DNA from: Trypanosoma brucei
Lineage: Eukaryota
Length of the DNA stretch: 64,000 bases
NCBI GenBank assembly: GCA_000002445.1
Contig: CH464491.1
Coordinates: 864,001 to 928,000 of the forward strand
Reading direction: 5' to 3'
Of this stretch, positions 7,181 through 43,007 are shown piece after piece. The notes beneath the pieces were generated by a model. It did no database searches. It was not told where the DNA came from and was given only the letters and a program-made list of their open reading frames with translations. Both the position numbers and the translations under genes were made by a program. Within the stretch, counting starts at the first letter, position 1. The number at the start of each line of letters is the position of its first letter.

Positions 7181-9106
7181 TCAAATGGTTACCCTGGGCT
7201 GCCCCACCTCCGTTTCTGTGTATCCGCCCACACCATCCAACATCATAATATCATGATGAAACTTCTTTAACGATTCACGGTGAGATGTCGTTATTAACGT
7301 CATACCCTCATCCAAAAGTAATTTGTACAACGTTGGCTCAATGTTTTGGGACACCGCGCTCGTGCACTCGTCTAAAAACACAAAGGTTGGCCGATGGTAA
7401 AGTGCGCGAACAAACGCCACGCGCTGCCGCTCACCTCCAGACAGCACCTCTGACCATTCTTTCCATGCATCCAACCCTCCCACGCGCGTCAGCAGTCCTC
7501 TCAACCCAACGCGGGTGGCAAACTCTACAAGTTTGGCGTCTTCGATATCACCTGCCCGCTTGTCTGCCTCGGAGGTTGGGTAAGTGAATTGAGTCCGTAG
7601 GGTCCCCGGGGGGAGGTAAACCCGCTGCGTCAGTACAACCATCTGGGATGGGGGAGGACGTTTCAGGGAGCCCTCACGCAGGGACCACACGCCAGTGATA
7701 ACGCGGATGAGGGCCGTCTTTCCAGCTCCGTTACAACCCATTATGAGGACGTGCCGGTCCGCCTTGAATGTTGCGTTGTAATTGGCAAGAATCATCTTGT
7801 CAGATGGGGAGAGAATGTACGCGTTCTTAAACACAATCTTATCGTCACTGGACTCTTCCACCAAACTTAGCGTCGTCTCCCGTTCGTTTCGCTCGAGGGA
7901 ACGAAGAGAATCCTGTAGCTCCCCAACACGATGGGCGCCGCCACACACAGCGCTTACCTTTAGGTGGATTGAAAAAAGCCTTGCGATGGATTTGGCCAAC
8001 GAAGTACACAGCTTCGCGTTCCGTGCATACAGTTGCGCCATACCAGCGGCATCCATGCTATCTGCACGACGGGCAACAGCGAATCCACAAACTGCTAAAC
8101 CGACGCACGTCGATCCATACTCAACAAACATCGAGCTGACTAAGGTGCTCCACCACTTAAGGCGCTTAATGTTACTTTCCAATCGCAGGTACGATCGAAG
8201 GAGACGATCAGCAGTCGCACGCTCAACATCTGCACCGCGGTAAAACGCCACCTCTTCCGCGTGGTGAAGGAGCTGGGTGTGCATCGTGCGAAGGTTGCCC
8301 TCCTTTGCGTGACTGGCTGCCATCATAGTTGCAAAGTTTGGAAGAATTAGTCGAAATAGCACGGCAACGAATGCGTAGTATGAAAATATGAGCAGGGATT
8401 CGTTGTGACCACCGTGCTCGGCCAGCGCAGAAGAAAATGTAACGATATCCATCGACGGTTTTAGTATAGAAGGTATCAAAACCGCAAGTTCTCTGCTGAA
8501 GCACTGGACATCATTCGTCACACGATGGCCCGGGTTGTCCACGGTGCCTGTAGTTGCAAGGTCGTAAACCCGGCGCCCCTGGAAGTACTCTTTATGAAGA
8601 GCATGCTGAAGCCGCTCCCGAAACCGCCACTCTATTGAGGAAATTGTGTAGCCGATGCCCACATTCACTACGGTTGCGGGTAAGGCATATAAAGCGATAT
8701 CACCGATGCCAAGTAACAATTCCCTAAAGTTCTTCTGAACGAGTGCCTTAACGTTATTCCCGGCTACCCGGGACAACATCAGCGTCAACCTGGTGCGAAG
8801 GGCGAGCAGCAACGTCAAAGCAACCATAGTACCAGATTCAGGGGAGAGAACACTGGGAAAACAAATACGGAGAAGCCCCACAACCCGCCAGAAGAGGGTG
8901 CTGTCGAAGCGTACAGTGGGTCGTCTATGTCGACCGGACGCCTTACCTGCGTGTCGTCGCGGCGATGATGGGTTTGCTCGGCGAGCAAGCACACACTTGT
9001 GTACGCCCTGAAACAGTAGTGCTATTACCACCAAAAGAGCATACTTCGCATGTGAGAACGGGGAGGCGACTAGTAATTGCTTCAGCCCGTCAAGTACAGA
9101 ACTCAT
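7181..9106 (-). CDS. ABC half-transporter of the ABCD (peroxisomal/glycosomal, GAT-like) family. N-terminal TMD plus C-terminal NBD
   Basis: The ORF-caller start at 9109 is TTG; the first ATG is at 9104-9106 (641 aa). Walker A GCNGAGKTA; ABC signature LSGGERQRVAFVRAL; Walker B VFLDECTSAVS. The ABCD-specific EAA-like motif EEVAFYRGA is between the TM helices. Multiple predicted TM helices in the N-terminal half. Confidence 0.88.
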   Translation of the reverse strand: MSSVLDGLKQLLVASPFSHAKYALLVVIALLFQGVHKCVLARRANPSSPRRHAGKASGRHRRPTVRFDSTLFWRVVGLLRICFPSVLSPESGTMVALTLLLALRTRLTLMLSRVAGNNVKALVQKNFRELLLGIGDIALYALPATVVNVGIGYTISSIEWRFRERLQHALHKEYFQGRRVYDLATTGTVDNPGHRVTNDVQCFSRELAVLIPSILKPSMDIVTFSSALAEHGGHNESLLIFSYYAFVAVLFRLILPNFATMMAASHAKEGNLRTMHTQLLHHAEEVAFYRGADVERATADRLLRSYLRLESNIKRLKWWSTLVSSMFVEYGSTCVGLAVCGFAVARRADSMDAAGMAQLYARNAKLCTSLAKSIARLFSIHLKVSAVCGGAHRVGELQDSLRSLERNERETTLSLVEESSDDKIVFKNAYILSPSDKMILANYNATFKADRHVLIMGCNGAGKTALIRVITGVWSLREGSLKRPPPSQMVVLTQRVYLPPGTLRTQFTYPTSEADKRAGDIEDAKLVEFATRVGLRGLLTRVGGLDAWKEWSEVLSGGERQRVAFVRALYHRPTFVFLDECTSAVSQNIEPTLYKLLLDEGMTLITTSHRESLKKFHHDIMMLDGVGGYTETEVGQPRVTI

Positions 9107-10825
9107 CAAAAGGGGTTTTACCGGCTCCTTTTAATTTTCCTTCTATTTTTCTGTGTTCCCCTTACACCTACGAAATGTATAGACTTCGAGCTCAGTACCC
9201 TGGGAGACAAAAAGGTTATGGCAAGACTCTCTGCGTGCGCTCCACGCTGTAGGCACTAGAGTACGGGCTGGGTGGGCGCAGAGTGCGTACGTCCCTCTGT
9301 TTCCACGCCCTTCAGCTTATCCCGGTTTTTCTGCTGCTCAATGTCTTAAAAGAAAAAAATGCAGGGACGAAAAAGGCTTATGACAACGAAGAGCTTAAAT
9401 GCAACAATAAGAGCGGTGTAGGCAAACACCTCCTTATTCATCCACCTGCCCTCCTCAGCAGCAGTTATAGTTTCAAGGAAAGGAAGAAATAAAACTACTT
9501 GAGTAAAAACAGTAGCAAGAGTGACGTTCAAAAAACTTTAAAGGCCGTCGCTTCCATCTCTTCTCGGCTCCATTTCAGCGAAAAGATTCTGGTCTTCATC
9601 CACAAGCGGCTTCACACCCTTTCTTACATTCACCAGATACTTCTTTTTTTTTTTTGCTCTGTCACCACCCTTGTGGCTTCTGTCCCCCATACAAAAACAC
9701 AAATACAAAAAATGAAGAAGCATACTCCAACACTTCAAAATATCAAAAACTGTCGTGTTGATTAACGTTGGGGGCGGGAAAAGCAAAGATTTACCGCAGC
9801 ATACGTCACGGGAAAAAGAAGACAACTCAACCATCATCTCATCACCAAAAATGTTTCAATTCTTTGTACATTCTTAACCTCCAACAATGTACCCCTTAAG
9901 CTATACAAACAACGAAGGGTGATGGGATCAATGTATTCTTTTGTACAGTACCGCATTCCTCTTTCGTCCATTCGATTATTCATTTGTTTTTCCCACTACA
10001 CTTAAATATTTTTTTTCGATTGATTTTCTGTTTTTTTTCACTCTCTGCCTCGAAGAAGTTACAGAATACAGTACACATATGGAGGCGAACCGCGTGCCTG
10101 ATTCGACGCGGTAGCAGCAGCCATGGACCGCACGTGCGATCCTCCACAATTCAATTCCCACTGAAAGGAGGAAAGGGAGAATATTCTCGTCAGAAAGCTC
10201 GTAAATAAATTAGATGAGAGCAAACTCCCCTTCTCCCTTGCCCCCCCAACCCCCATCATTTTTCACAATAAACGAAAACAGTAAAAAAAAAAAAGAAAAA
10301 TTGCCGCACAGAAATGCACATCAAAGGCGGGGGGAAGATTGCAAGAAAGAGAGAGGTGGACGCAGGAAAGTGCAATGCTATAAGGAGGGAGAAATAGAAG
10401 AAAGAATATGAACACCGAAGCAAACGTTACGCTATATACATATTATAGATGAAGAAGACTGGCGTCTACCATTCCCCGCCCTTCCCTTTATAACAGTATG
10501 AACATTTTATTGCTCGTTCATTCACAAAAGTCATTCATAACCATTGGCTTTGTTCACAATTCCCCGTCCCAACTATCTTTGTGGTCTCTTACACTCCTGC
10601 AGAACCAAAAAAAAAAAAGCGTCTCCAACGCGATACATCCACCACATGATGTGCCTTTTCAATTTTAAAAGGGAACCGCACAGCAAGTGGGGGGAAAAGA
10701 TTAAATAAGTGCAAGCGTACACAAACCAGATACAACAACACAAAATGACGTAAACTGAACGAAAGACAAGGGAGCCAAAAACAGGTGCTAAAGACTAAAT
10801 TAAAAAAAGGAAGCGAATACATCTC

Positions 10826-12193
10826 CTAGCACCCGCATCTGTCGGTCCCACGTTTGCCTATCTTAGGCAAGCGCGGAAGGGCTTTGTGGAACTTAGACTC
10901 ACTATCATCTTCGCCAGTGGCCGCTGTGTTCCGCTTTTGCTTACTTAATAATTCATTGACCTCATCAGCGATCCACGGGTGCTTCATCGCCCGCCGAGGA
11001 GTGGCACGCGAGTCCGGAACCCACTCAAGGAACAGCTTAACGAAACTGACAAATGGATCTCCCTCCGGCAGTCCAAGGAACGCCGCAATATTCTTGGTTC
11101 CCGGAAAGCGTATCTTAAGTTTGCTGTTGGGAACTAATTTGGGTGAATAATTTGCGCTTGCTTCAAAAAACTCATGTTTGCGCGGGGAACGAAGTATAAA
11201 ATCACGCGGCGGGGTCCCTAAAAACTCCATTATGCACGCCATCTGTTCCTGCTCGCTTTCACCTGGGAAAATGGGGTAGCCGGAGGCGAGCTCGCAAAGA
11301 ACACATCCATAACTCCAAAGATCTATGCACCTGGAGTAGGGACACCCTAGAAGTACCTCGGGTGCACGGTAGAAGCGCGATTGGATGTAGGTGAACAAAC
11401 GGGCGTTTTCAAAGCAAGAGGAGCCCAAGTCAATCACTTTCACTGCCGTGTCATTGGGTGACCTGAGGAGTATGTTTTCCGGCTTCAGATCACAATGAAT
11501 AATGTTCTCTCGCCACATGTAGGAAAGAGACACGAGAACACCAGCCCCAATCTTGCGAACGACGTCTAACGGCAATGGCTTGAACCTGCGTTGCTTTAAG
11601 TAAGTGTACAAGTTACATCCTAACAGCTCGTATGTAATGCAGACATGGGAACGAAAGGTGAAATTATCAATCATTTGGACTATTCCGTAGATCCCTGAGG
11701 GGTCACCTTTCTTCAAATGACTCAAAATCTGCACCTCAATCTTTGCTTGTGCGGTGAAGCGTTTCCTGTTGCGGATAATCTTTAGCGCTACAGTACAGTT
11801 CTTGCAGTGATCAACTGCCTTAACCACCTGTCCGAAGGAACCACTCCCCAGTGTGCTTAAAACCTCGTAGCGGTATGCGATGTGGTCACGTAGTCTGATG
11901 AGGTAGTCCCCTCTTTCATCATCATACCCCTTGTTATGGCCTCCTTCCACCGGTGCCTGAACCTTGCGGTCACAATTTTGGCCAACGTAATATACTTCCG
12001 AGTAGCCCTTTATCTCGTCCATCTCGTACGGAGTAAGATGAGCGGAATGAAAGTCATTAGCGGGGACTGCACCTTCGTGCAACACATTTAGCCGCATCCC
12101 CTTGCCCCCTTGCGGTTTCGTACAGAGCGCAGGAACCTGCGTGCTCCTGCGGAAGTCATGGTTTTCACCCGCCAACCTGCGAGAGACATCCAT
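10826..12193 (-). CDS. DYRK-family dual-specificity protein kinase, 455 aa
   Basis: ATG at 12191-12193. DYRK homology (DH) box GYDDERGDY upstream of the kinase domain. GSGSFGQV glycine loop, VALK lysine, HCDLKPENILL catalytic loop, DLGSS, activation loop FTYIQSRFYRAPE (DYRK YxY-type), CMGW-like region. Confidence 0.92.
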   Translation of the reverse strand: MDVSRRLAGENHDFRRSTQVPALCTKPQGGKGMRLNVLHEGAVPANDFHSAHLTPYEMDEIKGYSEVYYVGQNCDRKVQAPVEGGHNKGYDDERGDYLIRLRDHIAYRYEVLSTLGSGSFGQVVKAVDHCKNCTVALKIIRNRKRFTAQAKIEVQILSHLKKGDPSGIYGIVQMIDNFTFRSHVCITYELLGCNLYTYLKQRRFKPLPLDVVRKIGAGVLVSLSYMWRENIIHCDLKPENILLRSPNDTAVKVIDLGSSCFENARLFTYIQSRFYRAPEVLLGCPYSRCIDLWSYGCVLCELASGYPIFPGESEQEQMACIMEFLGTPPRDFILRSPRKHEFFEASANYSPKLVPNSKLKIRFPGTKNIAAFLGLPEGDPFVSFVKLFLEWVPDSRATPRRAMKHPWIADEVNELLSKQKRNTAATGEDDSESKFHKALPRLPKIGKRGTDRCGC

Positions 12194-12476
12194 CCCTCGT
12201 CACTTACTACTAATACTACTAAAGTAAGAGAGCCTCAAGAAGAAACAAAAAAAAGTGCGCGCAACATGTGCGGAAATGATCAAATAGTAAAAAAAAACTG
12301 TAGAAAAACTAGAAAGATCCTATGTACAAAGACGCAAGGCTACACCACCCAATACACATGGTCATCCAGAGCAATACAGAGACACTTTCATACCCCGTAT
12401 GCGCACACAGCCTGCATAAATGAACCACTAAAGAAAAGGGGAAGCGGGAGCGGAGGTGTGGGTCCCCCTCCAGAAG

Positions 12477-13730
12477 CTAAAACTTGCAAGCTTCCAAAGA
12501 GTGCACTATTGCTCCCATACGGGTGTACCAGTCCATCCACTCATTCGGTTCCTCCGTAGGGTTGGGCTCGTGGAGGACAAACAAACGTTCAGAGTAGTCC
12601 TCGAAGCCTACAGGGAAGAATACATGCTCCGATGCGAGGCCACCGCATGGAAGCCGAAGCGATGGGTTGGATTCAATCAAGGTCGGGATGTGAACTGTAG
12701 GAAGAGAGGAATACTCAACCGTGTACCCCAGCATATACCACAAAACCTCCGTGGAGGTCACTATTGTCCAGCAGGTGTGGCATTCGCTGCATAGAGCAAC
12801 ATGGCCATACTCTGTCATCACGCGCAAGTTGTTACACCGAATGCGGCGGATATTGGAATCTTCGGGGGTTGTGCGAAGCGCGCGCACCAGCTGCAGCACA
12901 TTCAACGCCAAGGGCCCACGAAAGGGAGGTGAAACATCCTTCAACACTGATGGTGCGGCCGAAATATCGTATAGTTTGGACTTCAGAAGCAACCCTTCAT
13001 GCTCCGCCTCGCGACGTTGGATCTCCGCAAACCACTTGGCCGCCTCTCTTTCATCAAGCATTTGCTGAACGGCATTTTTTTCACTTTTCCTTTCCATCAT
13101 TAAAGCTGCCCGGGCCCGCTTCTCCTCGGCAGCACAAACATCACGACTCTCTACCTCCATCCGCACCAGGTCCACGACGTTACCTGCCAGGCGTTTCTGC
13201 CACGCTTCCGTTTGCGCCAGTCTCAACACATGTTCATCATACAAGTCCTCGACCCAAGCAAGTGGTGGGCATTCCTCATAATTCAAGTTTTCTTCTGAAA
13301 GTATTAGTCCGCTTGCGGAAGTGTCAAACAGAGAACCTACAACGGTGCAAAAGTCTTCAAAGAGTTGCTCAATTGCTACGCACATCCGTTCATTGTATAT
13401 TTGCTTGTCGGGGTCCTTTTCCCGACCCTTGTGCAGAATCTTCACCACACGAGGACGGCAATTCGTTATTAAGGTTTGAACCGACACTGCCTGCGAGTGC
13501 AGAGCAACTACATCTCCTCTGTCATCATCCTTGAAGGCGTCAATGAGCACGGCGGTCTCCTGCTTCAGTTGATCCACAAGGGCGCAAAGTTTCTTGTACT
13601 CAGTCATTCCAGGGAAGAGCCACACCCCTCTGCAACCGAGTGAGAACAGCAAAAACTTCCCTCTCCCCTTTCGACTCGAGAGAATGAGCAGAATGATAAA
13701 GTTTGACAGCACCAATGTCGCGTGAAGCAT
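12477..13730 (-). CDS. Hypothetical protein with central coiled-coil/charged region and Cys/His-containing C-terminal domain. Alternative start at 13607 gives 376 aa
   Basis: ATG at 13728-13730. The first 41 codons encode only L/F/S/I-rich sequence (pyrimidine-rich on the coding strand) and may be a 5' UTR/polypyrimidine tract. An in-frame ATG at 13605-13607 (MTEYKK...) is the more likely start. No family recognised. Confidence 0.5.
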   Translation of the reverse strand: MLHATLVLSNFIILLILSSRKGRGKFLLFSLGCRGVWLFPGMTEYKKLCALVDQLKQETAVLIDAFKDDDRGDVVALHSQAVSVQTLITNCRPRVVKILHKGREKDPDKQIYNERMCVAIEQLFEDFCTVVGSLFDTSASGLILSEENLNYEECPPLAWVEDLYDEHVLRLAQTEAWQKRLAGNVVDLVRMEVESRDVCAAEEKRARAALMMERKSEKNAVQQMLDEREAAKWFAEIQRREAEHEGLLLKSKLYDISAAPSVLKDVSPPFRGPLALNVLQLVRALRTTPEDSNIRRIRCNNLRVMTEYGHVALCSECHTCWTIVTSTEVLWYMLGYTVEYSSLPTVHIPTLIESNPSLRLPCGGLASEHVFFPVGFEDYSERLFVLHEPNPTEEPNEWMDWYTRMGAIVHSLEACKF

Positions 13731-13851
13731 GATGACGACGAAAGTATAAACTTTGGAACACGTAACATAGCGAAAAAAAATAATAAGTCGAGTATGGCAC
13801 TCTACATGCCCAACAATGCCAACAAATCTGCCTCGCTTAGTTACATTTTAT

Positions 13852-15024
13852 TTAAAAGTCGGGGGAACAACCAGAGCCCAACTGCAGTTGAATCACCTGT
13901 GCCAGACGGTCCACGAAATACTCACTGTTAACTATAGCCTCATATGGATTCACAGCCACAGTGTACCTCACTTCAACATCCTTGTCCAGTATGCTTTTCC
14001 CTGTTTGAGCATCCCTCAAGTCCACAATAGATTTGTCCTCTCCAATCGATATGTTGTCGTCAAAAAACACGTAAAGGCGCGCTTTATCAGGCGTCGGTTC
14101 TGGTATTGTAGCAACCGGAAACACCTTCCCGCCACAGCGGCTTTCCGCTTTCTGTGCCCAATACGGATAATAATCAACAATCCCCGCCACGCCATTAGAC
14201 TTACTGGCGTACTCCACCAGTTGTTCTTCGAGGGCGGAGAAGTTCGTTTGGTAGACAGCGGTACATGACGGCATTTGTCGTAACTGCTTCATCGCATCCG
14301 AGGGAGAAAGTGTCCCCGTGTCCTCAGGATAGACCACCACCGCAGCGGTGTTGGGGCCGTAGCAAAGGAAAAGATCATCCTCATCGCGGAATATGCACCC
14401 CGTCACTTCAGGAACATATGCCTCCTTCAAGCGCTGAAGCATCGGTCCCCGCGGTAAGTGCTTGTGTTTGCCTTGAACAAACTCCCTCCACTCTTGGAGG
14501 ACACTCCCCAGCTCGGTCCCAAATGTCCTGAACAGAAGCGTAAATGGCCAGCTGAGTTCAGAAAGGGTGTTAATAAATTCAAAAAAGGACGGAATGATAA
14601 GCTGGTCGGGTGTTGCGGTCAGGACTGTCCTTTGTTCATCAACATATCGTTTAAAACCTTCGCCCGGTTGCCCGGGGCGTGTAAAGGCACTAAGAATGGA
14701 TCTTCTCTTTGCCGAGACATCCTGCCACAACCGATTTTTCTCAGCTCGAGAAAGATCTTGCATCCCTGGAGGTTCCTTGAATTTTTCATCAATGTACTGG
14801 TCGTACGTGACCAACCCGGTACGATCACCGGCCTGACCAGGGCCCAAAACAGCGGTCCAGCCCTCACCAGAGACGCGCCCCCATACGTTTGCAGCAACAT
14901 TACTATTCATAACATCCTCCATTGTTCGCCCCCCTGCAGAGTCCACCTGAATAATAGTTTTATTGATATCCATGTTTATGACGAGGTGTCTTCGGGGGCA
15001 CTGCTCGAGGAACAGGCGGGACAT
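13852..15024 (-). CDS. Hypothetical protein, 390 aa. Possible HAD-superfamily (5'-nucleotidase-like) fold with a variant motif I
   Basis: The ORF-caller start 15033 is TTG; the first ATG is at 15022-15024. N-terminal hhhhDxNxT (VINMDINKTII) resembles HAD motif I with Asp+2 replaced by Asn. C-terminal LYVFFDDNISIG resembles HAD motif IV (DD). Assignment is tentative. Confidence 0.45.
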   Translation of the reverse strand: MSRLFLEQCPRRHLVINMDINKTIIQVDSAGGRTMEDVMNSNVAANVWGRVSGEGWTAVLGPGQAGDRTGLVTYDQYIDEKFKEPPGMQDLSRAEKNRLWQDVSAKRRSILSAFTRPGQPGEGFKRYVDEQRTVLTATPDQLIIPSFFEFINTLSELSWPFTLLFRTFGTELGSVLQEWREFVQGKHKHLPRGPMLQRLKEAYVPEVTGCIFRDEDDLFLCYGPNTAAVVVYPEDTGTLSPSDAMKQLRQMPSCTAVYQTNFSALEEQLVEYASKSNGVAGIVDYYPYWAQKAESRCGGKVFPVATIPEPTPDKARLYVFFDDNISIGEDKSIVDLRDAQTGKSILDKDVEVRYTVAVNPYEAIVNSEYFVDRLAQVIQLQLGSGCSPDF

Positions 15025-15968
15025 AGCTTTCAAGACTACCGCAGGACAAAAAACAGCGCCTTAAAGAGAATGAGTAAATTAAGGCTTGGAGGCACTACTT
15101 GAAGAAATGAAAAAATGATGCATGGGCGAGGAAATACATCACGCAAACAATAGCCACACATGATCAGCGCTAAAACGCGCTTCTTACATCCAGCAGTCAG
15201 ACAAACACTGTCCGCTGCAGCGCGTTTCGACGGATTCTGGCGACGCACAACAAAAAAGAATGACAAAAAGCTGACGGCTCACACTCATTTTCTGTCACGG
15301 GGAGGTGGGGAACGTCTTGGCGTGCGCATGAGACTACTACCGCTCGAAAAATATATATTCCCCCCTCCTCTCTCAACACGCAGTCACTCCACCCTGCACC
15401 AGCGAGCGGCACTCGAGCTAGTCGTTGCAGTCATTTATGTTTGGTATGATTCAAGACGGCTCCGCACAACCTTTGGGGTATCACCAAACACACGTCGCCG
15501 GGATGCTAACTTCACCCCAGGGTTATAGGCAAAAAAAAAAAAATGAACACCCTCTCAGAAACACCGTATTAACAGGAAACATGAAGGTGTCGGGAATTTC
15601 AAACGAATCACGACATTTGCTTGAACGTAAACACATCGACGGGAACGACTAACAACATCCTTGTGTATGTGACACCTCCTCCTCATCAGATCGCCCCCAG
15701 GTTCAAAACTGTGGCAAGAACGGCCTTGCGGATACAACAGAGAGGGGAATCGTTTTAAACAGACAAGCAGACACGGGTGGTTCAGCTTTCAAGGGAGCAA
15801 TCTCAAACACTGCCCGCGCTGATGTGGGGCGACTGGTGGCTTCGTACACCACACCCATCGAGGACAGACAAAGATCTCAAAACAATGGTCGATCTCTCAA
15901 AGACGCCCCCTCCCTCTCCACACATAATTTCCACACAACAGAAGGGTTCTCAAGGTCATGGAGGAGCG

Positions 15969-16586
15969 CTACCGTATGAAGTAGCGCTGTACGCGCAGGG
16001 GATGAATCTTCGTAATGCGTGGAAATATTTCCAGTAGGTACCACAGGATGTGGCCCACCAAATCAGCCATCACTTCAGTACCAATACCAACTTCACCGAA
16101 CATAACGCTCATCAGAAGGAATACAAGGGGGAGGTATCGCACCTGCACCGTCAAAAGACCAAAAATGCTCGCCTCCTGATGAGGCAGCAGCCGCCCAAAG
16201 AGATACACCAGCGTCTTCGAAAACTGGTTACTGAGGTATGGTGTTTCTATCGCACGAGTGCTTCTGAGGAAAAGTAAAAGCCCTGCCCCAGTAAAGAGGG
16301 TCAGGCAGTAGTCTAGACGCCGTCGGTGGAAGTACTGCAATTCAATGCTGCTGCTCACCATATATAACCAGTGTAACTCGATAATACTACTCAGGTTGAG
16401 AGGGCCAAAGTAAAAGAATGTTGAGACCAGCCGCCAATAATGCTTTTCTTGGAACGCGAGGGTAGGACTGAAAATCATCTGCAGTGGGTGGACGAGGCCG
16501 AATGAAACTAGCACAACCGAGATCACACTAAGACACAGCAGCAGCCTTGTTACTGGCGGTATCTCCCATAGAAAGTTAAAGTCCAT
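15969..16586 (-). CDS. Derlin (Der1-like) ERAD rhomboid pseudoprotease, 205 aa
   Basis: ATG at 16584-16586. N-terminal EIPPVTR motif (Derlin signature Y/F-x-IPP-V/I-TR). Four TM helices. C-terminal LVGHILWYLLEIFP aligns with human Derlin-1 LVGHLYFFLMFRYP. Confidence 0.85.
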   Translation of the reverse strand: MDFNFLWEIPPVTRLLLCLSVISVVLVSFGLVHPLQMIFSPTLAFQEKHYWRLVSTFFYFGPLNLSSIIELHWLYMVSSSIELQYFHRRRLDYCLTLFTGAGLLLFLRSTRAIETPYLSNQFSKTLVYLFGRLLPHQEASIFGLLTVQVRYLPLVFLLMSVMFGEVGIGTEVMADLVGHILWYLLEIFPRITKIHPLRVQRYFIR

Positions 16587-16955: not shown

Positions 16956-17534
16956 TTACATCTCAAGAACCTTCATTAGCAACAAACCTGAGAGGAGCAT
17001 AAGAGAGGAATTCGCTACTCCAACGATGACACATGTGTTGATGTCCCACTCCGAGTCCGACAAGCTACGGAGATGGTGAATAACCCACAATGATGTCAGC
17101 ATAAATACGCCACTGAACATCATGAAGGCCACTAGTACGCCCACTTCTACGAATCTGCGATCGCGGCAACGCGTAAACGTGAGTGGTGTGCTTGCAAGCA
17201 GCATTAGAGCAGCAAGACACACCTGCCACCTCAGAAGGGTCTGCACGAGAATTCCCTGTTGTCCATAAGTTAATAGGTAGAACGTAACAAGTAACAGTGT
17301 TAGAAGTGACCACAAAGCAGGCCATGAGATGAAAACAAAAGGCAACATATGTTCCCTCCTTGCACTCTGGGGAGCCATTCTCTCTAATTTGCGTATACCA
17401 TCTTCGATGAAGGCATCATACTTCCTTTCCAGGTACTGAAGTGACTCAAACTCTCCGGGTGATAAGTTACCGCAGTCCCTCGCAGCTCGAAGGGTGTCCA
17501 ACTGGTACTCATCTTCTCGGGTAAAGTCACCCAT
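16956..17534 (-). CDS. Hypothetical small multi-pass membrane protein (about 192 aa)
   Basis: The ORF-caller start 17591 is GTG; the first ATG is at 17532-17534 (MGDFTRED...). Soluble N-terminal 70 aa followed by 3-4 hydrophobic helices. No family recognised. Confidence 0.45.
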   Translation of the reverse strand: MGDFTREDEYQLDTLRAARDCGNLSPGEFESLQYLERKYDAFIEDGIRKLERMAPQSARREHMLPFVFISWPALWSLLTLLLVTFYLLTYGQQGILVQTLLRWQVCLAALMLLASTPLTFTRCRDRRFVEVGVLVAFMMFSGVFMLTSLWVIHHLRSLSDSEWDINTCVIVGVANSSLMLLSGLLLMKVLEM

Positions 17535-17968
17535 CACATTCACATGTGATATATTAACCAACAATGCAGTCTTGGATGTACGAAACGCCACGCAGGGCCT
17601 TCCACTCCCTTCCTACCGAAACCCCACGGTACAAATTAAAAATAAGGAAGGTAAAGCACAGAAAAATGTAAGCAGTGCTATTAAAAGGCCACAGGTCAAA
17701 GTATCAACCTTATACCTGTAAAAGGTGCATTCCTCCTTGGCAGTCTTAGGGCTCCACGGGAGCTTACATGGACGTTAAAACCTCTGGTGGCATCGTCACG
17801 GGACAAAAAAAATGGGAAACTACTTTGGTAGCACAATCCCGTTCCCGCTAACAGCCCCCACGTCAGCCTATCCTCACGCTCATTTTTACGAACAAAGAGT
17901 AAAAAAGTGTAGAACCTGGCCAGCAAAAGAGGTGCTTCTGCCGCCAACGTTCGTCACATGGAGTCCGC

Positions 17969-20900
17969 TCACGTCGATTCCAACGACGCCTCATCATCAC
18001 TATTCTCCCCGTTCCGCGATGCAGCTTCGTCCTGGGACTCAGTCGTCTCTTCCTCCCCCATCGTCCACGTATCACTTCCGTCGCCACCGCCATCCACCTC
18101 GGCAGAATCCGAGTCACTCGTTGTTTCTGTGTTGCTGTAATACTCCGGGGAGTCGGAAGCGCTTGCCCATTCATAAGAATCGCTGTCATCTTCACCATCA
18201 TCGTCATCTTCGTCATAACCTCCAGACCAAGAACCGTTGTTTCCTACCTCGTCATCGTCATCGCTCTCCGCAAGACCTGCCCCACTATCATTACTCCGAT
18301 CGTTTTGTGGGAGCGAGAACGCTTGTTGACCAGGTAGCGGGCCGGAGGATGTTGAGAACACACGCACTACGGCTGCTGCGTCACCATCGAGAATCGCAGC
18401 ACAGTAACGGTCCGATGGTTCAATGGCAAAGGCTCTGAAGGCTGGGCGCACTTCTGTTGAAAACACGGTCTCAAATGTGTAACTATCAACCACTGAAAGA
18501 ACTGGTGTAGCCGTGTGAGACAACGCAGATGCTTCGCGAAAGCTATAAATCACACGTCTAAAAGGGCTGGTGTAGAAACTGCTGCTGTTCCTGAAGGAAG
18601 GTACGGTCTGCAGTATGGACAGGGTCCGCAAATCCCATACCTTTTCATCAATCATCACAAGGGGGTTGAACGGATGAAAAATATTGCAAAAGGAGTTGGT
18701 AAAACGGTCAAAACGACAGATGGGTCTGTCACCGCACCGAACATCCCACAGAACAGCGTCACTGAGAACAAGCTGAGAGAACTGGTCAAAGGTGGCTACG
18801 TTGTCAACGTTTTCCCCAACCCACGACGGATCGCTAAAATGACGCACCTCACATTGCGCCCTGAGGTCGTAAAGACGGCAGGTGTGCTCCTCGTCACACG
18901 TTGCTAACAAATATGTGTTACAACAAGAGAACATGGCCGCACGGCTATCCTCAACCTGGTACTTCACCGCAGGAAGCTCATTACGACCCATCACAGCTAC
19001 CTTGTGCTCCGCGTTTACCAACCCCAGTAAGGCACTATCGTCAGACACGTAAATTCCAACGACACTACCGTTATCGAAGGCCAAGTGCTGTTCTGACAAC
19101 TTGTCGTCCGTGGAATCATCTGGGAACGTGTCAAACAGAGCAATCCCGCCTTCAGAGGTTCCCACAACTAGTGTCTCCCCACCATCGCAAAAGGCCACAC
19201 TATCGCCCTGAAGTTCATCTCCACTCCCCGTTATGTCGAATAAATAACCCGGGTTACGGTACGTAAAGTGGTTTTCGTTCGTCCTTGTGCGTAGTGAGAA
19301 ATCTAATCCCATCTTTTGCACCAAGCGCCTGTTAAACGCGTTTCGCGTTTGATCAACAGGGGCATCCAGTGGGTAGTAAACATGGCCCTTCCGCAAATCA
19401 AATTGAGGCAAGGTTGTAATGGGATTGGTGCACTTCTCATGCTGTTGTCTCAGGTAAGAGCGCACAATGCCATCAAGGGTGGGTGCCCCGATGGGGGACA
19501 GTGCCATATCGGGCGAGGCATTCGCCGAATGTTGTGCCATTGCGATGTCACACGAAAGAGGAGCGTCACGCCGAAGGGCTGAAGCCGCATTCAGCAACCC
19601 CTCCGTCTCTAAGTGGCGGCAAATCAGCTCCAACAGTGATTCACGCGAATAACTTATGTGAGATCGAGCGATGACAGCCTGGCGTTGCTCCAACTCGACG
19701 GGGTCCACAGAAACGGACGGAGTGGTCCTATTCGTCTCATCGAAGAGAAAGCACTTGATGTTCTCCATAAACCGACCTGTTGCGTGCACCTCGCTCGCCA
19801 CATAGCGCGGCCCCATCATGGTTAAGTACTCCTTTTGAATATCTCCATATTGGGTCATAAGCTCCCGCGCCACTGAGCCAACCCCTAGAGCATCAAAGAG
19901 AAGACGTGTATCAGCATACCGTCGAAGGGTAACCATCAGTTGCAGTGCCCGTGCGACCACGGGAAACAACTGCAGCTTAACCGACATTGCCGGATCCTTC
20001 CGAACTTTCAAAACCTCCAACAGCGTACGAACGCCGTCGTTTGCTCGGATCATACCACAAACGCGGTTAAAGGTGGCCACACAAACATCGTCGTTTTTGT
20101 CAGCGGGTAATCTCGTTAAATTCAACAGTATCTGCAACGAAGTAGCAACACACGGAATGAGATGGGACTCCCTAGAGGCGTTTCCGTTTTGGAACGCCGA
20201 TGTTAATTCACTCACTATCATAATCAAGTGCGCAACCCCCGATTCAGGGTACTGAGCATCGGCAACCAAGGGTCGGAAGAAGGGTACAACTACCAAAACA
20301 CAAAGCACATTTAGCGATGCGGCAAGTAAGTCCCATCGACCCTGTGTGAAGTAGAACTGCGCACAACGTAGCAGTATCTGGTGAAAATTATTATCCGCGA
20401 AGAAACGAAATGCAGCAAGCCTATCTCGAGTAAGCAGGCTTTGGATTGTTTCGGTAGATATATCCGGAATAGTGGCAGAAGGGGCCGACAAATAACCGAG
20501 AACCGATTCCACGGTGGCAGGGTCTCGGGGCAGTGACCTCTCTGGTGCAGAATCGGTCACTAAAACCGATAAAAATCTGTGCTTCCGGAATATGACCCTC
20601 GTGGCCAACATCAGATGAGAAATCAAGTAAACGTAGGCGCACTTTAACGCCGCCAATGTTACTCCTGGACAAATAACATCAAACTGTTCTTCCGAACTCT
20701 GTAACAGCCGCTCTATTAAGCCAAGTGTTGCTTGGGGCCCTTGATGCGCGTCAAAAAAGGTAACAACATAAGGGAAACTCAAAGCAAGGAAAAGGAAGCC
20801 TCCCGCGCTGCCTTGTACGTCGTGACTCGAGGCAACTTTCCACTGATGCAGAATGAAGTTCAATATCGGCTCGAAGTATTCACCATGGTTTCGAAGCAGG

Positions 20901-22921
20901 TTCTCAAACACCGCAGCTCTAGCTAATTGAGACAGCACGATGCAGCACCCATACATTGTCACTGGATCTAAACGGCCATCAGTTAACTTTATGATCTGCT
21001 TCAAACCTCCCAGTTCTAGGAAAATCAAAGCGAGTTTCTTGTGGGTAAACAAAGAGTTTAGAACCCAACCAACCCTACCCACCAACTCCCGCATTTTTCG
21101 GTAATGGCTCTTAGTTGTTTGTAGTTCAGCACTCCAGTTCAAACGAACTTCAAGTAATTCGCGTTCGTCCGCGTTCATTTCCACATTGTCCTCTGATAAG
21201 ACGAACCCCAATGTTTTTTTCTCCTCCGTTTCCACAGCTGCAGTAGCTGCATCCAAATCGACTCGACTCAATACGTAGAACATGGATTCCACTGTTTGGA
21301 ACTGGAGAGCAGGTAGAACTGTCTCTCGTTGGTGACAAAGTGCTCCCACGACGGCGCAACACAACATAAACTCTTCCATCTTGAAGTCAATGTTTTCTGG
21401 CATCAGGGTCTGAATATTCAAAAAATGATCCCACGGAACAACTTGATCGTTTGGACCCTTGTACTTGTAGCGGAAGAATCGGTCCCCCTCACTCTCGTGA
21501 GGGGGACAGTCGACACTCCTTATCCAACGAACAACCACTTCCTCTGCCGTAGTTACCTCCACAACCTCACCAAAATCGCATTTTTTCCCTTGGTCATTGA
21601 AGCACCACATAGGACCGCGACCTACCCTGTCACCCCTTCGTGGCTGCCAAAAATCTGGTAACTTCCGAAAACGGGGTGATTCCTCTCCTGTTTCGAACTT
21701 CCTCTTTTTGTGGGGCCTAGATATCAGATCATCTCCTCCCCCTTGATTAAATTCTGCCAGGGCAGATTCATGTTCCACCTCTTTTATAGGTATGGTTGAC
21801 CTATCAAACATTGGAGATGAAGAGGCTTGCTCAGATCCCGCAAACTGCGAATGTGAAGAAAGGGACATCTGCTTTGATTGGGGCAACACTTGTTGCGCTT
21901 CCTTCACGCATGGCACCCCTACGGAGCTCCCAGCAGCAACTTCGGGTGACGTCTTACGTGAGAGCGTGGGAGAATTCAGCTCACTCCTGATAACGGCAGA
22001 GTAGTGTCTGAAGGGGGATCGACTCCATCTTTGTGAGGGAGATATCCCATTGTTTTCAGGATAACCAAATATCCGGTGAACCAGATGTCGCAATCTCTGA
22101 AGCAAAACCCGCGGCAACTGTTGACTAAGTGCCTCACCTACCGCTTGGTCATCCTCTTCAAGCCTGCTAAACACCAGAGAGAGGGCAATAAGCCGTTTTT
22201 GTCTCTTCTTCTCTCCTATGATAACTTTACAGAGATCTTGTATAGGTGTAGAGTCAAAAAAATTTCCCCGTGATCCCTCCACCAGCAAAAACGCCGTATA
22301 AGTGGCGATACTTTGTGTCCTCACCACACTTTTATAAAGGATTGGCTCACTCTGAATTGATCTTCCCTCAGATCTCGACAACAAATCATCCCGTTCCACA
22401 TTAAAATTAATCATTTCTCCCATGTATTCACAAAAGGGTGCATTATTGCAAACCGTTTTGATAAGAGACTCAAAAGGCGCGCGATCCTGTAGACTCATCG
22501 TGCTAGCATAAACGTCAGTACAACGTTTATACTCATCATGAAGAATTTTCGCTAATTGACCCCACAGAAAAAGTTCAAGATTTATGTACTCTTGTAGCAG
22601 GGTCAGTGTTTGTTTGTCACCGCTTTCGGTGTCTATTGTTTCTCCCTGTGACTCGGGGGAAGTATTCCTTGCCTGAGCCCTAAGTCTTTCTTTTAGCATT
22701 TTAATCTGCTTCTGGGCCTTCGTGAGACGTCGCATGATGTGTTTGAGTGTACCGACTAATTCGGCTGACACAATGATGTCATCTTCGAAGTTTTCCTCCC
22801 CGCTCCGCTCTGCAAGCTCATTGAGAACATTAAACGACATATTATTTGCAGCATCGTCTACCGATAAAGTCGTAAAGTGGTCAGTGCCATCTGCAAGACG
22901 ACTCCCTTGCAGATTTTCCAT
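17969..22921 (-). CDS. Large (about 1650 aa) DCAF1/VprBP-like protein: helical (ARM/HEAT-like) N-terminal region, LisH motif, WD40-like beta-propeller, acidic Asp/Glu/Ser C-terminal tail. Candidate CRL4 (DDB1-CUL4) substrate receptor
   Basis: The ORF-caller start 23035 is TTG; the first ATG is at 22919-22921 (MENLQGSRL...). LisH-like motif SRESLLELICRHLETEGLLNAASALRRDA (about nt 19570-19665). WD-like repeats from about nt 18440-19400 (e.g. TCRLYDLRA, VLWDVRCGD, KVWDLRTL). Last 95 aa about 50% D/E/S (about 17972-18260). The domain order matches metazoan DCAF1. Confidence 0.6.
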   Translation of the reverse strand: MENLQGSRLADGTDHFTTLSVDDAANNMSFNVLNELAERSGEENFEDDIIVSAELVGTLKHIMRRLTKAQKQIKMLKERLRAQARNTSPESQGETIDTESGDKQTLTLLQEYINLELFLWGQLAKILHDEYKRCTDVYASTMSLQDRAPFESLIKTVCNNAPFCEYMGEMINFNVERDDLLSRSEGRSIQSEPILYKSVVRTQSIATYTAFLLVEGSRGNFFDSTPIQDLCKVIIGEKKRQKRLIALSLVFSRLEEDDQAVGEALSQQLPRVLLQRLRHLVHRIFGYPENNGISPSQRWSRSPFRHYSAVIRSELNSPTLSRKTSPEVAAGSSVGVPCVKEAQQVLPQSKQMSLSSHSQFAGSEQASSSPMFDRSTIPIKEVEHESALAEFNQGGGDDLISRPHKKRKFETGEESPRFRKLPDFWQPRRGDRVGRGPMWCFNDQGKKCDFGEVVEVTTAEEVVVRWIRSVDCPPHESEGDRFFRYKYKGPNDQVVPWDHFLNIQTLMPENIDFKMEEFMLCCAVVGALCHQRETVLPALQFQTVESMFYVLSRVDLDAATAAVETEEKKTLGFVLSEDNVEMNADERELLEVRLNWSAELQTTKSHYRKMRELVGRVGWVLNSLFTHKKLALIFLELGGLKQIIKLTDGRLDPVTMYGCCIVLSQLARAAVFENLLRNHGEYFEPILNFILHQWKVASSHDVQGSAGGFLFLALSFPYVVTFFDAHQGPQATLGLIERLLQSSEEQFDVICPGVTLAALKCAYVYLISHLMLATRVIFRKHRFLSVLVTDSAPERSLPRDPATVESVLGYLSAPSATIPDISTETIQSLLTRDRLAAFRFFADNNFHQILLRCAQFYFTQGRWDLLAASLNVLCVLVVVPFFRPLVADAQYPESGVAHLIMIVSELTSAFQNGNASRESHLIPCVATSLQILLNLTRLPADKNDDVCVATFNRVCGMIRANDGVRTLLEVLKVRKDPAMSVKLQLFPVVARALQLMVTLRRYADTRLLFDALGVGSVARELMTQYGDIQKEYLTMMGPRYVASEVHATGRFMENIKCFLFDETNRTTPSVSVDPVELEQRQAVIARSHISYSRESLLELICRHLETEGLLNAASALRRDAPLSCDIAMAQHSANASPDMALSPIGAPTLDGIVRSYLRQQHEKCTNPITTLPQFDLRKGHVYYPLDAPVDQTRNAFNRRLVQKMGLDFSLRTRTNENHFTYRNPGYLFDITGSGDELQGDSVAFCDGGETLVVGTSEGGIALFDTFPDDSTDDKLSEQHLAFDNGSVVGIYVSDDSALLGLVNAEHKVAVMGRNELPAVKYQVEDSRAAMFSCCNTYLLATCDEEHTCRLYDLRAQCEVRHFSDPSWVGENVDNVATFDQFSQLVLSDAVLWDVRCGDRPICRFDRFTNSFCNIFHPFNPLVMIDEKVWDLRTLSILQTVPSFRNSSSFYTSPFRRVIYSFREASALSHTATPVLSVVDSYTFETVFSTEVRPAFRAFAIEPSDRYCAAILDGDAAAVVRVFSTSSGPLPGQQAFSLPQNDRSNDSGAGLAESDDDDEVGNNGSWSGGYDEDDDDGEDDSDSYEWASASDSPEYYSNTETTSDSDSAEVDGGGDGSDTWTMGEEETTESQDEAASRNGENSDDEASLEST

Positions 22922-35200: not shown

Positions 35201-35673
35201 GCGTAGGGCTCGCACTTTTACCCCTCAGAAGGCAGGCAATAGACATATATAACCGCGAATGCTCGTGCTCCAAACGCCTGAAACGTCGTGGGCTCACAAT
35301 TAAGACCCCTTTCGGCAGGCCGAGCCCGACCTTGGTAGGTACCACAGCACTCCGTATTGGGGAATGTGGCCACGAAGCCTCCCGAAGACATCACGCTAAC
35401 CGTCTCTTTTCCCTCTACCATGCAGAAAACGCACACGCCAAAAGGGTGGTTCCGCCCCCCTCCACATGGTGGCACAATGGAACATGCCAAATTGTTAAGT
35501 GTTTACCTTTTTTTTTTATCGGCCGCAGGAGGAGAGCAATAAGGCGAGATTGTTGTGTCCACGTCGGCCGCTCTGGCGTTGGTCGCACTGGACTTGCCCT
35601 CGATGTGTGGCGAGACGTTCACTAACGGCTGCAGTGGCCCGGCCGTTGTTTCCACAGCTCCAGCATAGATGCC

Positions 35674-35690
35674 GGGGGGGGGGGGGGGGA
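35674..35690. repeat. G17 homopolymer inside a GC-rich (roughly 60% or more GC) 800-bp block of the strand-switch region
   Basis: gccgggggggggggggggggaatgg. ORFs in the surrounding 35.5-36.3 kb region are Arg/Cys/Trp/Gly-rich, which indicates non-coding GC-rich DNA. Confidence 0.9.
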
Positions 35691-40151: not shown

Positions 40152-40172
40152 TATATATATATATATATATAT
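40152..40172. repeat. (TA)10 microsatellite about 175 nt upstream of the eL42 gene
   Basis: tatatatatatatatatatat. Confidence 0.9.
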
Positions 40173-40345
40173 GTTGATTTAGAATTTCATCGTGTTTATT
40201 ATAACCAGAGATGGTGACATCACCTTCTCTATTTCCCTCTTGTCACTGCCCACACTGTTTAATTCCTAAGTTTTTTGAGAAACATTCTATTAACATTGTG
40301 TTTTGACCTTAATTTCTACTTCTGTACTAGCTCCGACAGCCCAGG

Positions 40346-42938: not shown

Positions 42939-43007
42939 GTGGAACGATTAAGCAACGAGAAGAGGAGTTACGTAAATCAAACAAGCAAACTAAGGAAAGG
43001 AACCCCG

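What the first reader, a model, noticed from the sequence alone, without database searches (positions are those of the whole stretch)
17969..22921. DCAF1/VprBP-like architecture (helical N-terminus, LisH, WD40, acidic tail): candidate CRL4 substrate receptor
The 1650-aa protein has, in order, a long helical region, a well-formed LisH motif (LLELICRHLETEGLLNAASALRRDA), a WD-repeat-like region and a C-terminal tail that is about 50% Asp/Glu/Ser. This is the exact domain order of metazoan DCAF1, the CUL4-DDB1 receptor hijacked by HIV Vpr/Vpx. A clear DCAF1 ortholog in kinetoplastids would be relevant to CRL4 biology in these parasites. I infer this only from motif order.
Basis: inference. Interest (0 to 1): 0.55.

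Follow-up and report, generated by a model that had tools for sequence, protein, structure and literature searches.

The report
Trypanosome DCAF1 (VprBP) ortholog
This Trypanosoma brucei gene, annotated only as "hypothetical protein", is a true ortholog of human DCAF1/VprBP, a substrate receptor of the CUL4-DDB1 ubiquitin ligase; it most likely is the unnamed "DCAF" already co-purified with trypanosome CUL4, and it carries an extra MIB/HERC2-type domain that animal DCAF1 lacks.

Summary
The observation and the interpretation both hold.

- **The gene.** Window 17969..22921 (-) encodes a 1650-aa protein identical to T. b. brucei TREU927 XP_828401/Q386J2 ("hypothetical protein, conserved").
- **Sequence evidence.** The only strong solved-structure matches are human DCAF1: E=5e-30 with the single sequence and E=1e-78 with an ortholog profile. 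The match is collinear across the ARM region, LisH, H-box region, WD40 and tail.
- **Motifs.** Both WDxR motifs (WDVR 1392, WDLR 1429) and the FDxF motif between them are conserved.
- **Structure.** An AlphaFold model of the C-terminal module matches 44 human DCAF1 chains before any other WD40 protein.
- **Gene identity.** By position, next to Tb927.11.3180 and two genes from MCA1 (Tb927.11.3220), the gene is almost certainly Tb927.11.3190. That protein is the best-enriched "DCAF" in a published TbCul-D (CUL4) pull-down, after the bait and DDB1.

CRL4 association is therefore already published. The named DCAF1 orthology is not: that paper did not make it, and a 2025 review table lists DCAF1 as absent from Trypanosoma. 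Automated annotation already calls the T. theileri ortholog "HIV-1 Vpr-binding protein".

One new detail is a divergent MIB/HERC2 domain (residues ~425-500), shared with Provora DCAF1 and absent from a sea-urchin DCAF1.

Overall this is a correct finding of modest novelty.

The parts
17969..22921 (-). Complete coding sequence, 1650 aa plus stop (184.7 kDa, pI 5.0). Identical to T. b. brucei TREU927 XP_828401/Q386J2; inferred to be Tb927.11.3190.
21902..22624 (-). N-terminal helical module (residues ~100-340). It is conserved in euglenozoan-type family members and two other protist proteins, and was not detected in animal DCAF1.
21698..21709 (-). KKRK (residues 405-408), a candidate monopartite nuclear localisation signal in a Ser/Pro-rich linker. 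A basic cluster is kept in the T. theileri, T. vivax and Novymonas orthologs.
   Evidence: the function is inferred
21422..21649 (-). Divergent MIB/HERC2-like beta-barrel domain (residues ~425-500; G-D-R-V-G-R-G-P-x-W ... Q-G ... V-V-V-R-W).
19655..21124 (-). Armadillo-type region (residues ~600-1089), homologous to human DCAF1 ~374-845 and to the same region in 139 family members.
19547..19651 (-). LisH motif (residues 1091-1125), aligned to human DCAF1 LisH 846-878, the dimerisation element.
19394..19483 (-). PTLDGIVRSYLRQQHEKCTNPITTLPQFDL (residues 1147-1176). This is among the most conserved linear motifs outside the propeller and corresponds to human 1002-1031.
19307..19354 (-). H-box-like segment DQTRNAFNRRLVQKMG (residues 1190-1205), aligned to the human H-box NFTSRLNRRASFP (1049-1061). 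R1198 is invariant in 21 diverse family members.
   Evidence: the model has low confidence here
18332..19234 (-). WD40 beta-propeller (residues ~1230-1530).
18737..18748 (-). First WDxR motif, WDVR (1392-1395), matching human WDVR with R1247.
18701..18712 (-). FDRF (1404-1407), matching the human FDKF F1255/F1258 motif that is needed for DDB1 and Vpr binding.
18626..18637 (-). Second WDxR motif, WDLR (1429-1432), matching human WDLR with R1283.
17972..18289 (-). Acidic C-terminal tail (residues 1545-1650): 36% Asp+Glu, 54% Asp+Glu+Ser, no Lys.

Best explanation
The gene encodes the Trypanosoma brucei ortholog of DCAF1/VprBP. It most likely works as a substrate receptor of the CUL4-DDB1-RBX1 (CRL4, TbCul-D) ubiquitin ligase.

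**Inferred mechanism, by homology with human DCAF1**
- The H-box-like helix (~1190-1205) and the WD40 propeller with its two WDxR arginines (R1395, R1432) dock onto DDB1.
- The LisH motif (1091-1125) pairs two receptors into a dimer.
- The top face of the propeller, the armadillo region, the acidic tail and a lineage-specific MIB/HERC2-like domain offer surfaces for substrates or regulators. These are probably nuclear or nucleolar proteins.

**Shown here**
- Homology and collinearity with DCAF1.
- Conservation of the DDB1-binding motifs.
- A DCAF1-type propeller fold.
- A MIB/HERC2-type extra domain.

**Shown by others**
- Tb927.11.3190 co-purifies with TbCul-D, DDB1, RBX1 and NEDD8.

**Inferred**
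- That this gene is Tb927.11.3190 (from position).
- The docking mode on DDB1.
- Dimerisation through LisH.
- The identity of the substrates.
For: **Sequence**
- phmmer against all PDB chains returns only human DCAF1 with E<0.1. The full-length chain 7v7b_A scores E=4.9e-30 in two collinear stretches: q621-1152 to h378-905, and q1145-1644 to h1000-1479.
- A profile of 11 orthologs gives DCAF1 at E=1e-78. The ARM stretch scores i-E 1e-7 and the ARM-to-tail stretch i-E 1e-68. The best non-DCAF1 WD40 protein scores 1.7e-12.
- WDVR at 1392 and WDLR at 1429 sit 37 residues apart, as in human, with FDRF between them. In human DCAF1 the double mutant R1247A/R1283A loses DDB1 binding (PMC3928422).

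**Structure**
- AlphaFold2 of residues 1140-1545 gives pTM 0.63 and a confident propeller core.
- In Foldseek against the PDB, ranks 1-44 are all human DCAF1 (E 1e-18 to 2e-15, TM ~0.8 on the target). WDR5 follows at 5e-14 with TM 0.62.

**Family**
- An exhaustive HMMER search finds 355 representatives, 168 of them at E<=1e-10. Most of those inspected are 1200-1900 aa with paired WDxR motifs and acidic tails.
- Members that carry a name are called DCAF1 or VprBP: sea urchin 'DDB1- and CUL4-associated factor 1-like', K11789 in two Provora species, and 'HIV-1 Vpr-binding protein' in a JGI record and in T. theileri.

**Gene identity**
- The window protein has 0 differences from the TREU927 entry.
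- The next ORF downstream is 192 aa on the minus strand, which matches Tb927.11.3180 at Tb927_11_v5.1:901311-901889(-).
- A metacaspase ORF lies two genes upstream, and MCA1 is Tb927.11.3220.

**Published interaction**
- In the TbCul-D pull-down, Tb927.11.3190 ('DCAF') has the third-largest enrichment, after the bait and TbDDB1. RBX1 and NEDD8 are also present (PMC12816148 supplement).
Against: - **H-box register is unsettled.** phmmer pairs R1198 with human R1057 and puts Ala at L1054. MAFFT on 21 sequences pairs R1198 with human R1053, so R1199 falls at L1054 and Q1202 at R1057.
- **Low model confidence.** The AlphaFold model is unreliable for residues 1140-1223, so no helix-loop-helix could be confirmed structurally. 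It is also weak around the WDxR loops, at model residues 267-301.
- **Weak Pfam LisH support.** Pfam's LisH model does not reach threshold on the T. brucei sequence; support for LisH comes from the alignment to DCAF1.
- **Gene ID not read directly.** The link to Tb927.11.3190 rests on gene order and coordinates, not on a sequence or ID lookup.
- **No functional data.** No substrate is known. Co-purification does not prove receptor function.
- **Divergent N-terminus.** The N-terminal ~600 residues do not align with human DCAF1.
Confidence: 0.85

Rival explanations
1. It is a DCAF1-family protein whose main job in trypanosomes lies outside CRL4. It could be an adaptor for a HECT ligase, as human DCAF1 is in the EDD/UBR5-DYRK2 complex, or a chromatin or nucleolar scaffold that uses the LisH, acidic tail and MIB/HERC2-like domain. 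CUL4 association would then be secondary.
For: Human DCAF1 serves two ligases (PMC6821201 and PMC3847654). The extra MIB/HERC2-like domain belongs to a family otherwise found in the ubiquitin ligases MIB1, HECTD1 and HERC2. Nucleolar proteins co-purify with TbCul-D.
Against: The DDB1-binding determinants are conserved under selection from Trypanosoma to Novymonas and beyond. The protein is among the most enriched partners of TbCul-D, at a level similar to DDB1. No evidence for a HECT partner was found here.
Confidence: 0.08
2. It binds DDB1-CUL4 but acts as a regulator or assembly factor, not as a receptor that presents substrates. For example, it could hold the ligase in an inactive oligomer.
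For: Human CRL4-DCAF1 forms an autoinhibited tetramer through LisH and a contact between the WD40 domain and RBX1 that involves the R1247 loop (PMC8591539). Both LisH and the equivalent arginine are conserved here.
Against: In human the same protein is still a bona fide receptor; oligomerisation regulates that role and does not replace it. Large conserved putative binding surfaces (propeller, ARM, MIB/HERC2-like domain, acidic tail) argue for client binding.
Confidence: 0.05
3. It is a generic LisH/WD40 protein whose resemblance to DCAF1 is convergent motif order, not homology.
For: Pfam gives only weak, generic WD40 hits and no DCAF1-specific family in the copy searched.
Against: The match to DCAF1 runs collinearly over about 1000 residues at E=1e-78. 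It is more than 60 orders of magnitude better than the match to any other WD40 protein, and there is a DCAF1-specific structural match.
Confidence: 0.01

Closest known systems
Human DCAF1 / VprBP (PDB 7V7B, 7OKQ, 5JK7, 4PXW)
   Same: - The order of the ARM region, LisH, the conserved LDxI..YLRxQH motif, the H-box region, a WD40 propeller with two WDxR motifs and an FDxF motif, and an acidic tail is the same.
- It is the best sequence and structure match by far.
- Both proteins associate with CUL4-DDB1; for the trypanosome protein this comes from the literature.
   Different: - WD40 identity is only ~20-25%.
- The linker between LisH and the conserved motif is ~20 residues, against ~120 in human.
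- The first ~600 residues do not align with human.
- A MIB/HERC2-like domain and a KKRK cluster are present.
- No counterpart was found for the reported casein-kinase-like and chromo-like segments of human DCAF1.
- Two H-box positions probed in human (L1054, R1057) are not clearly conserved in T. brucei.
DCAF1/VprBP (K11789) of the Provora protists Apiculatamorpha spiralis and Papus ankaliazontas
   Same: They belong to the same family and carry a MIB/HERC2 domain in the N-terminal third, upstream of the ARM region.
   Different: In Provora the domain passes Pfam's curated threshold (37.9 and 38.4 bits against 33.5). In T. brucei it is divergent (17.6 bits) and has a longer C-terminal extension.
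MIB/HERC2 domains of MIB1 (4XI6) and HECTD1 (2DK3, 3DKM)
   Same: - The G-x-R-V-x-R-G-P-x-W ... Q-D/G-G ... G-x-V ... V-x-W signature is shared.
- MIB1 is the top PDB hit of a profile built only from euglenozoan-type sequences (E=4.3e-6).
   Different: - The host protein is a CRL4 receptor, not a RING or HECT ligase.
- The match is below Pfam's threshold.
- The model has only moderate confidence (pLDDT 68.5).
- In MIB1 the domain helps bind Notch ligand tails (from the title of PDB entry 4XI7); no ligand is known here.
Other T. brucei CUL4-associated WD40 proteins: WDR1 (Tb927.10.15080) and Tb927.8.840
   Same: They are reported partners of TbCUL4/TbDDB1.
   Different: They are different genes on other chromosomes. 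WDR1 has two WD40 repeats plus a PDZ domain. Tb927.8.840 is restricted to Trypanosoma. Neither was analysed here.

Membership tests
DCAF1 / VprBP | C-terminal WD40 propeller closest to the DCAF1 propeller, not to other WD40 proteins | tested here: met
   phmmer hits the DCAF1 WD40 chains at E~2e-15 and no other family below 0.3. The profile gives E~1e-36 for the DCAF1 WD40 chains against 1.7e-12 for the next WD40 protein. Foldseek ranks 1-44 are all DCAF1.
DCAF1 / VprBP | Two WDxR motifs ~36 residues apart (human R1247, R1283) with an FDxF motif between them | tested here: met
   WDVR is at 1392 and WDLR at 1429, with FDRF at 1404. The motifs are invariant across the 11 orthologs aligned.
DCAF1 / VprBP | H-box / helix-loop-helix N-terminal to the propeller that inserts into DDB1 (human 1049-1079) | tested here: inconclusive
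   A homologous segment, NAFNRRLVQKMG, aligns to NFTSRLNRRASFP, and one Arg is invariant in 21 sequences. The register differs between methods. The AlphaFold model is unreliable here, with pLDDT<50 for model residues 1-84.
DCAF1 / VprBP | LisH dimerisation motif between the ARM region and the propeller | tested here: met
   Residues 1091-1125 align to human LisH 846-878 in both the single-sequence and profile searches. Pfam's LisH model is below threshold in T. brucei but passes in the Provora member P0125.
DCAF1 / VprBP | Large armadillo-type region homologous to that of DCAF1 | tested here: met
   Profile positions 623-745 match human 374-493 (i-E 1e-7), and positions 853 onward match human 601 onward. 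Residues ~600-1089 align continuously with 139 family members, including sea-urchin DCAF1. The fold itself was not predicted here.
DCAF1 / VprBP | Acidic C-terminal tail | tested here: met
   Residues 1545-1650 are 36% Asp+Glu with no Lys. Acidic tails recur across the family.
DCAF1 / VprBP | Physical association with DDB1 and CUL4 | not testable with these tools
   In published IP-MS, Tb927.11.3190 is enriched with TbCul-D next to TbDDB1. The identity of this gene with Tb927.11.3190 is inferred from position.
DCAF1 / VprBP | Casein-kinase-like and chromo-like segments reported for human DCAF1 | tested here: not met
   There is no kinase or chromo Pfam hit. The human N-terminal ~370 residues have no aligned counterpart. 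These segments are features of the human protein and are not usually treated as defining the family.
MIB/HERC2 domain (Pfam PF06701) | Score above Pfam's curated threshold (33.5 bits) | tested here: not met
   The isolated T. brucei segment scores 17.6 bits (E=0.0037), and the T. theileri ortholog scores 13.5 bits. The homologous segment passes in Provora DCAF1, at 37.9 and 38.4 bits.
MIB/HERC2 domain (Pfam PF06701) | Profile-level and fold-level similarity to solved MIB/HERC2 domains | tested here: met

The most novel reading that the evidence does not exclude
A MIB/HERC2 domain in the N-terminal arm may be an ancient feature of DCAF1. It is retained in Euglenozoa and Provora, two distant eukaryotic lineages, and lost in animals. 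It would give the receptor a second, independent client-binding site. In trypanosomes this domain, together with the acidic tail, could recruit the nuclear and nucleolar proteins that co-purify with TbCul-D (NOP60, Nopp44/46, nucleoplasmin-like proteins). That would link CRL4-DCAF1 to nucleolar or chromatin protein turnover in an organism that lacks most metazoan DCAF1 substrates.
Probability: 0.25. Interest if true: 0.5.

Novelty: new member of a known kind. Interest (0 to 1): 0.35.

Why it matters
- **It names an unnamed component.** The most enriched unnamed component of the trypanosome CUL4 ligase gets a precise identity.
- **It corrects the record.** A 2025 review table lists DCAF1 as absent from Trypanosoma. 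The primary proteomics paper reported only three T. brucei hits, none of them this gene, from searches with 27 human DCAF sequences.
- **It bears on eukaryote evolution.** With DCAF1 present in Euglenozoa, the receptor is probably very old, possibly dating to the last eukaryotic common ancestor. Human structural and mutational knowledge (H-box, WDxR arginines, LisH dimer, and the WD40 pocket bound by small-molecule ligands in many of the PDB entries) can then be carried over to design experiments in the parasite.
- **It raises a testable question.** The extra MIB/HERC2-like domain may be a lineage-retained client-binding site.
- **It is not a new kind of system.**

Tried and rejected
- **Word-indexed homolog searches.** All three reached only close trypanosomatid relatives and a few fragments. 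The third, with a 21-sequence profile, was swamped by generic bacterial WD40 proteins. This limited the AlphaFold alignment to 9 rows and probably explains the moderate confidence.
- **Direct confirmation of the gene ID.** The exact-product lookup found nothing on record. The supplement files that would give the length of Tb927.11.3190 were truncated. Legacy IDs and the UniProt accession found nothing useful in the literature.
- **The afdb50 fold library.** It was not available.
- **Is the target WDR1, the published CRL4 receptor for TbPLK?** No. WDR1 is Tb927.10.15080, on another chromosome, with a WD40+PDZ architecture.
- **Does the plus-strand ORF 17812..18438 matter?** No. It is a His/Pro/Arg-rich antisense reading of the acidic-tail codons, not a gene.
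Full report
**1. The observation**

The minus strand of the window carries an open reading frame from 22921 down to 17969. From the first ATG it encodes 1650 aa.
- The quoted LisH-like string starts at residue 1096.
- The last 106 residues are 54% Asp+Glu+Ser, with no lysine.
- Two WDxR motifs lie at 1392 (WDVR) and 1429 (WDLR).

The protein has no differences from the T. brucei brucei TREU927 entry XP_828401 / EAN79289 / UniProt Q386J2, which is annotated "hypothetical protein, conserved". It has three differences from the T. equiperdum protein that heads its 90% cluster. The window is therefore TREU927 chromosome 11.

**2. Is it DCAF1?**

*Sequence.* A plain phmmer search against every PDB chain returned human DCAF1 and nothing else below E=0.3. 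The full-length chain 7v7b_A scored E=4.9e-30 in two collinear stretches:
- query 621-1152 on human 378-905, covering the armadillo region and LisH;
- query 1145-1644 on human 1000-1479, covering the pre-propeller segment, WD40 and tail.

A profile of 11 trypanosomatid and related sequences raised this to E=1e-78. The ARM stretch was independently significant (i-E 1e-7), and the stretch from ARM to tail scored i-E 1e-68. The best unrelated WD40 protein reached only 1.7e-12.

*Structure.* AlphaFold2 on residues 1140-1545, with a 9-row alignment, gave a moderate model (pLDDT 62, pTM 0.63). It has a confident all-beta core and weak N-terminal and WDxR-loop regions. In Foldseek against the PDB, ranks 1-44 were all human DCAF1 chains (E 1e-18 to 2e-15, TM about 0.8 normalised to the target). 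WDR5 and other propellers began at rank 45 with TM about 0.62.

*DDB1-binding determinants.* In human DCAF1 these are:
- the H-box at 1049-1061, where L1054P and R1057E abolish binding;
- the two WDxR arginines, where R1247A/R1283A abolishes binding;
- the FxxF motif at 1255-1258 (PMC3928422; PMC6821201).

The trypanosome protein keeps WDVR, FDRF and WDLR in exactly the same arrangement. These are invariant in all orthologs aligned. A segment NAFNRRLVQKMG aligns with the human H-box, and R1198 is invariant across 21 diverse family members. The register is not settled. phmmer pairs R1198 with human R1057, while MAFFT pairs it with R1053. In the MAFFT register, the positions of L1054 and R1057 are Arg and Gln in T. 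brucei, but Leu and Arg in Novymonas. I rate the H-box as present but unconfirmed.

Just upstream lies PTLDGIVRSYLRQQHEKCTNPITTLPQFDL (1147-1176). It is among the most conserved linear motifs outside the propeller in the whole family.

**3. The family**

An exhaustive HMMER scan of 1.84 billion representatives with residues 560-1545 found 355 proteins at E<=1e-3 and 168 at E<=1e-10. Most of those inspected are 1200-1900 aa, match near the C-terminus, and have paired WDxR motifs about 37 residues apart and an acidic tail.

Members that carry a name are named DCAF1 or VprBP:
- a sea-urchin "DDB1- and CUL4-associated factor 1-like";
- a JGI "HIV-1 Vpr-binding protein";
- two Provora proteins labelled K11789 VPRBP/DCAF1;
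- the T. theileri ortholog, "HIV-1 Vpr-binding protein" in NCBI.

A 2025 paper's table also labels an L. major protein VPRBP. I could not check that sequence. Residues ~600-1089 align continuously with 139 of these proteins, including the sea-urchin one.

**4. What differs from animal DCAF1**

The first ~600 residues do not align with human DCAF1. They contain three features.

(a) A helical module at ~100-340. It was found only in euglenozoan-type sequences and two other protist proteins.

(b) A Ser/Pro-rich linker with a conserved KKRK cluster at 405-408, a plausible nuclear localisation signal.

(c) A conserved block at ~425-500 that is a divergent MIB/HERC2 domain. The evidence for (c):
- Pfam MIB_HERC2 scores only 17.6 bits on the isolated T. 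brucei segment, against a threshold of 33.5.
- jackhmmer links the block to the homologous N-terminal segment of the two Provora DCAF1 proteins. There MIB_HERC2 passes threshold at 37.9 and 38.4 bits.
- A profile built only from euglenozoan-type sequences has MIB1 as its top PDB hit (E=4.3e-6). With the Provora sequences included, the E-value is 1.4e-13.
- Foldseek alone was not significant.
- The sea-urchin DCAF1 has no such domain.

Two further differences were seen. The linker between LisH and the conserved pre-propeller motif is about 20 residues, against about 120 in human. There is no kinase or chromo-domain signal.

**5. Which gene is this, and what is already known**

The next ORF downstream on the same strand (16956..17534) is 192 aa. 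A supplement of Canavate del Pino et al. (PMC12816148) lists Tb927.11.3180 as 192 aa at Tb927_11_v5.1:901311-901889(-). With that offset the target lies at 902324-907276(-), 435 bp upstream, which leaves no room for another gene. A metacaspase ORF lies at 30643..31797, and MCA1 is Tb927.11.3220. The target is therefore almost certainly Tb927.11.3190.

In that paper's TbCul-D (CUL4) immuno-isolation, Tb927.11.3190, labelled only "DCAF", has the third-largest enrichment after the bait and TbDDB1. RBX1 and NEDD8 are also present, along with nucleolar proteins, nucleoplasmin-like proteins and importin alpha.

The paper does not equate it with DCAF1. Its searches with 27 human DCAFs retrieved three other T. 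brucei genes. A 2025 review's conservation table marks DCAF1 with a minus sign for Trypanosoma. In the held text the check marks are not rendered, so I read the columns from the minus signs and from the statement about CSA.

The earlier CRL4 study in T. brucei concerned WDR1, a different gene, Tb927.10.15080.

**6. Mechanism**

The best-supported reading is that this is the DCAF1-type substrate receptor of trypanosome CRL4.
- It docks on DDB1 through the H-box-like helix and the WDxR face of the propeller.
- It dimerises through LisH, as in human DCAF1 (PMC8591539).
- It presents clients bound to the propeller, ARM region, acidic tail or MIB/HERC2-like domain to the RBX1-bound E2.

Homology, motif conservation and fold are shown here. 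Association with CUL4-DDB1 is shown by others. The docking geometry, dimerisation, nuclear targeting and any substrate are inferred.

The rivals are less likely:
- a mainly CRL4-independent role;
- a regulatory role instead of a receptor role.

Convergent resemblance is excluded.

**7. Verdict**

The biological novelty is limited:
- the family is well known;
- automated pipelines already name some orthologs VprBP;
- CRL4 association of this very protein is published.

What is added is the explicit and well-supported statement that T. brucei has a DCAF1 ortholog, contrary to a recent review table. Also added are a residue-level map of the conserved DDB1-binding motifs and the observation that euglenozoan and Provora DCAF1 carry a MIB/HERC2-type domain. 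Interest 0.35; new member of a known kind.

Noticed in passing
window 21422-21649 (-), residues ~425-500 of the target; also P0059 245-290 and P0125 293-337: DCAF1 orthologs of Euglenozoa and of two Provora species carry a MIB/HERC2-type domain in the N-terminal arm. A sea-urchin DCAF1 does not. This could be an ancestral feature lost in animals, or independent gains.
   Followed up: partly
window 23846-24751 (-): The gene immediately upstream of the target encodes a 301-aa protein with a DOT1 histone-methyltransferase-type domain (Pfam DOT1, E=2.5e-16) and a hydrophobic N-terminus. From memory, the studied T. brucei DOT1A and DOT1B are on other chromosomes, so this would be a further DOT1-like protein.
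   Followed up: no
window ~24800-30600: A stretch of about 5.9 kb between the DOT1-like gene and the metacaspase gene has no ORF longer than ~180 aa on either strand. It has raised G+C (0.55 at 26-28 kb) and strong A-over-T skew (+0.26). No tRNA, Rfam family or tandem repeat was found. It could be long untranslated regions or a decayed element.
   Followed up: partly
window ~31800-40970: Gene orientation switches here. All ORFs of at least 180 aa with a family assignment below ~31.8 kb are on the minus strand, and all from 40971 on are on the plus strand. GC skew changes sign near 36 kb. This looks like a divergent strand-switch region between two polycistronic units.
   Followed up: no
window 17812-18438 (+): A 208-aa His/Pro/Arg-rich ORF overlaps the 3' end of the target on the opposite strand. 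It is the antisense reading of the Asp/Glu/Ser-rich tail codons and is very unlikely to be a gene.
   Followed up: partly
window 21698-21709 (-), residues 405-408: A KKRK cluster sits in a Ser/Pro-rich linker, and a basic cluster is kept in the T. theileri, T. vivax and Novymonas orthologs. It is a candidate nuclear localisation signal. Importin alpha was among the proteins co-purified with TbCul-D in PMC12816148.
   Followed up: no
window 19394-19483 (-), residues 1147-1176: The motif LDxIVRxYLRQQHxxCxNPIxTLPxFDL, just upstream of the H-box, is among the most conserved linear segments of the family outside the propeller (human 1003-1031). The papers read here did not assign it a function.
   Followed up: no
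window 600-16586 (-) and 40971-63325 (+): Neighbouring genes are ordinary housekeeping genes. On the minus strand: NOG1 GTPase (3745-5712), a peroxisomal-type half ABC transporter (7181-9109), a protein kinase (10826-12193), a Der1-like protein (15969-16586) and a metacaspase (30643-31797). On the plus strand: a TCP-1/cpn60 chaperonin subunit (40971-42605), a 4681-aa dynein heavy chain (42939-56984) and a family-A DNA polymerase (58295-63325).
   Followed up: partly
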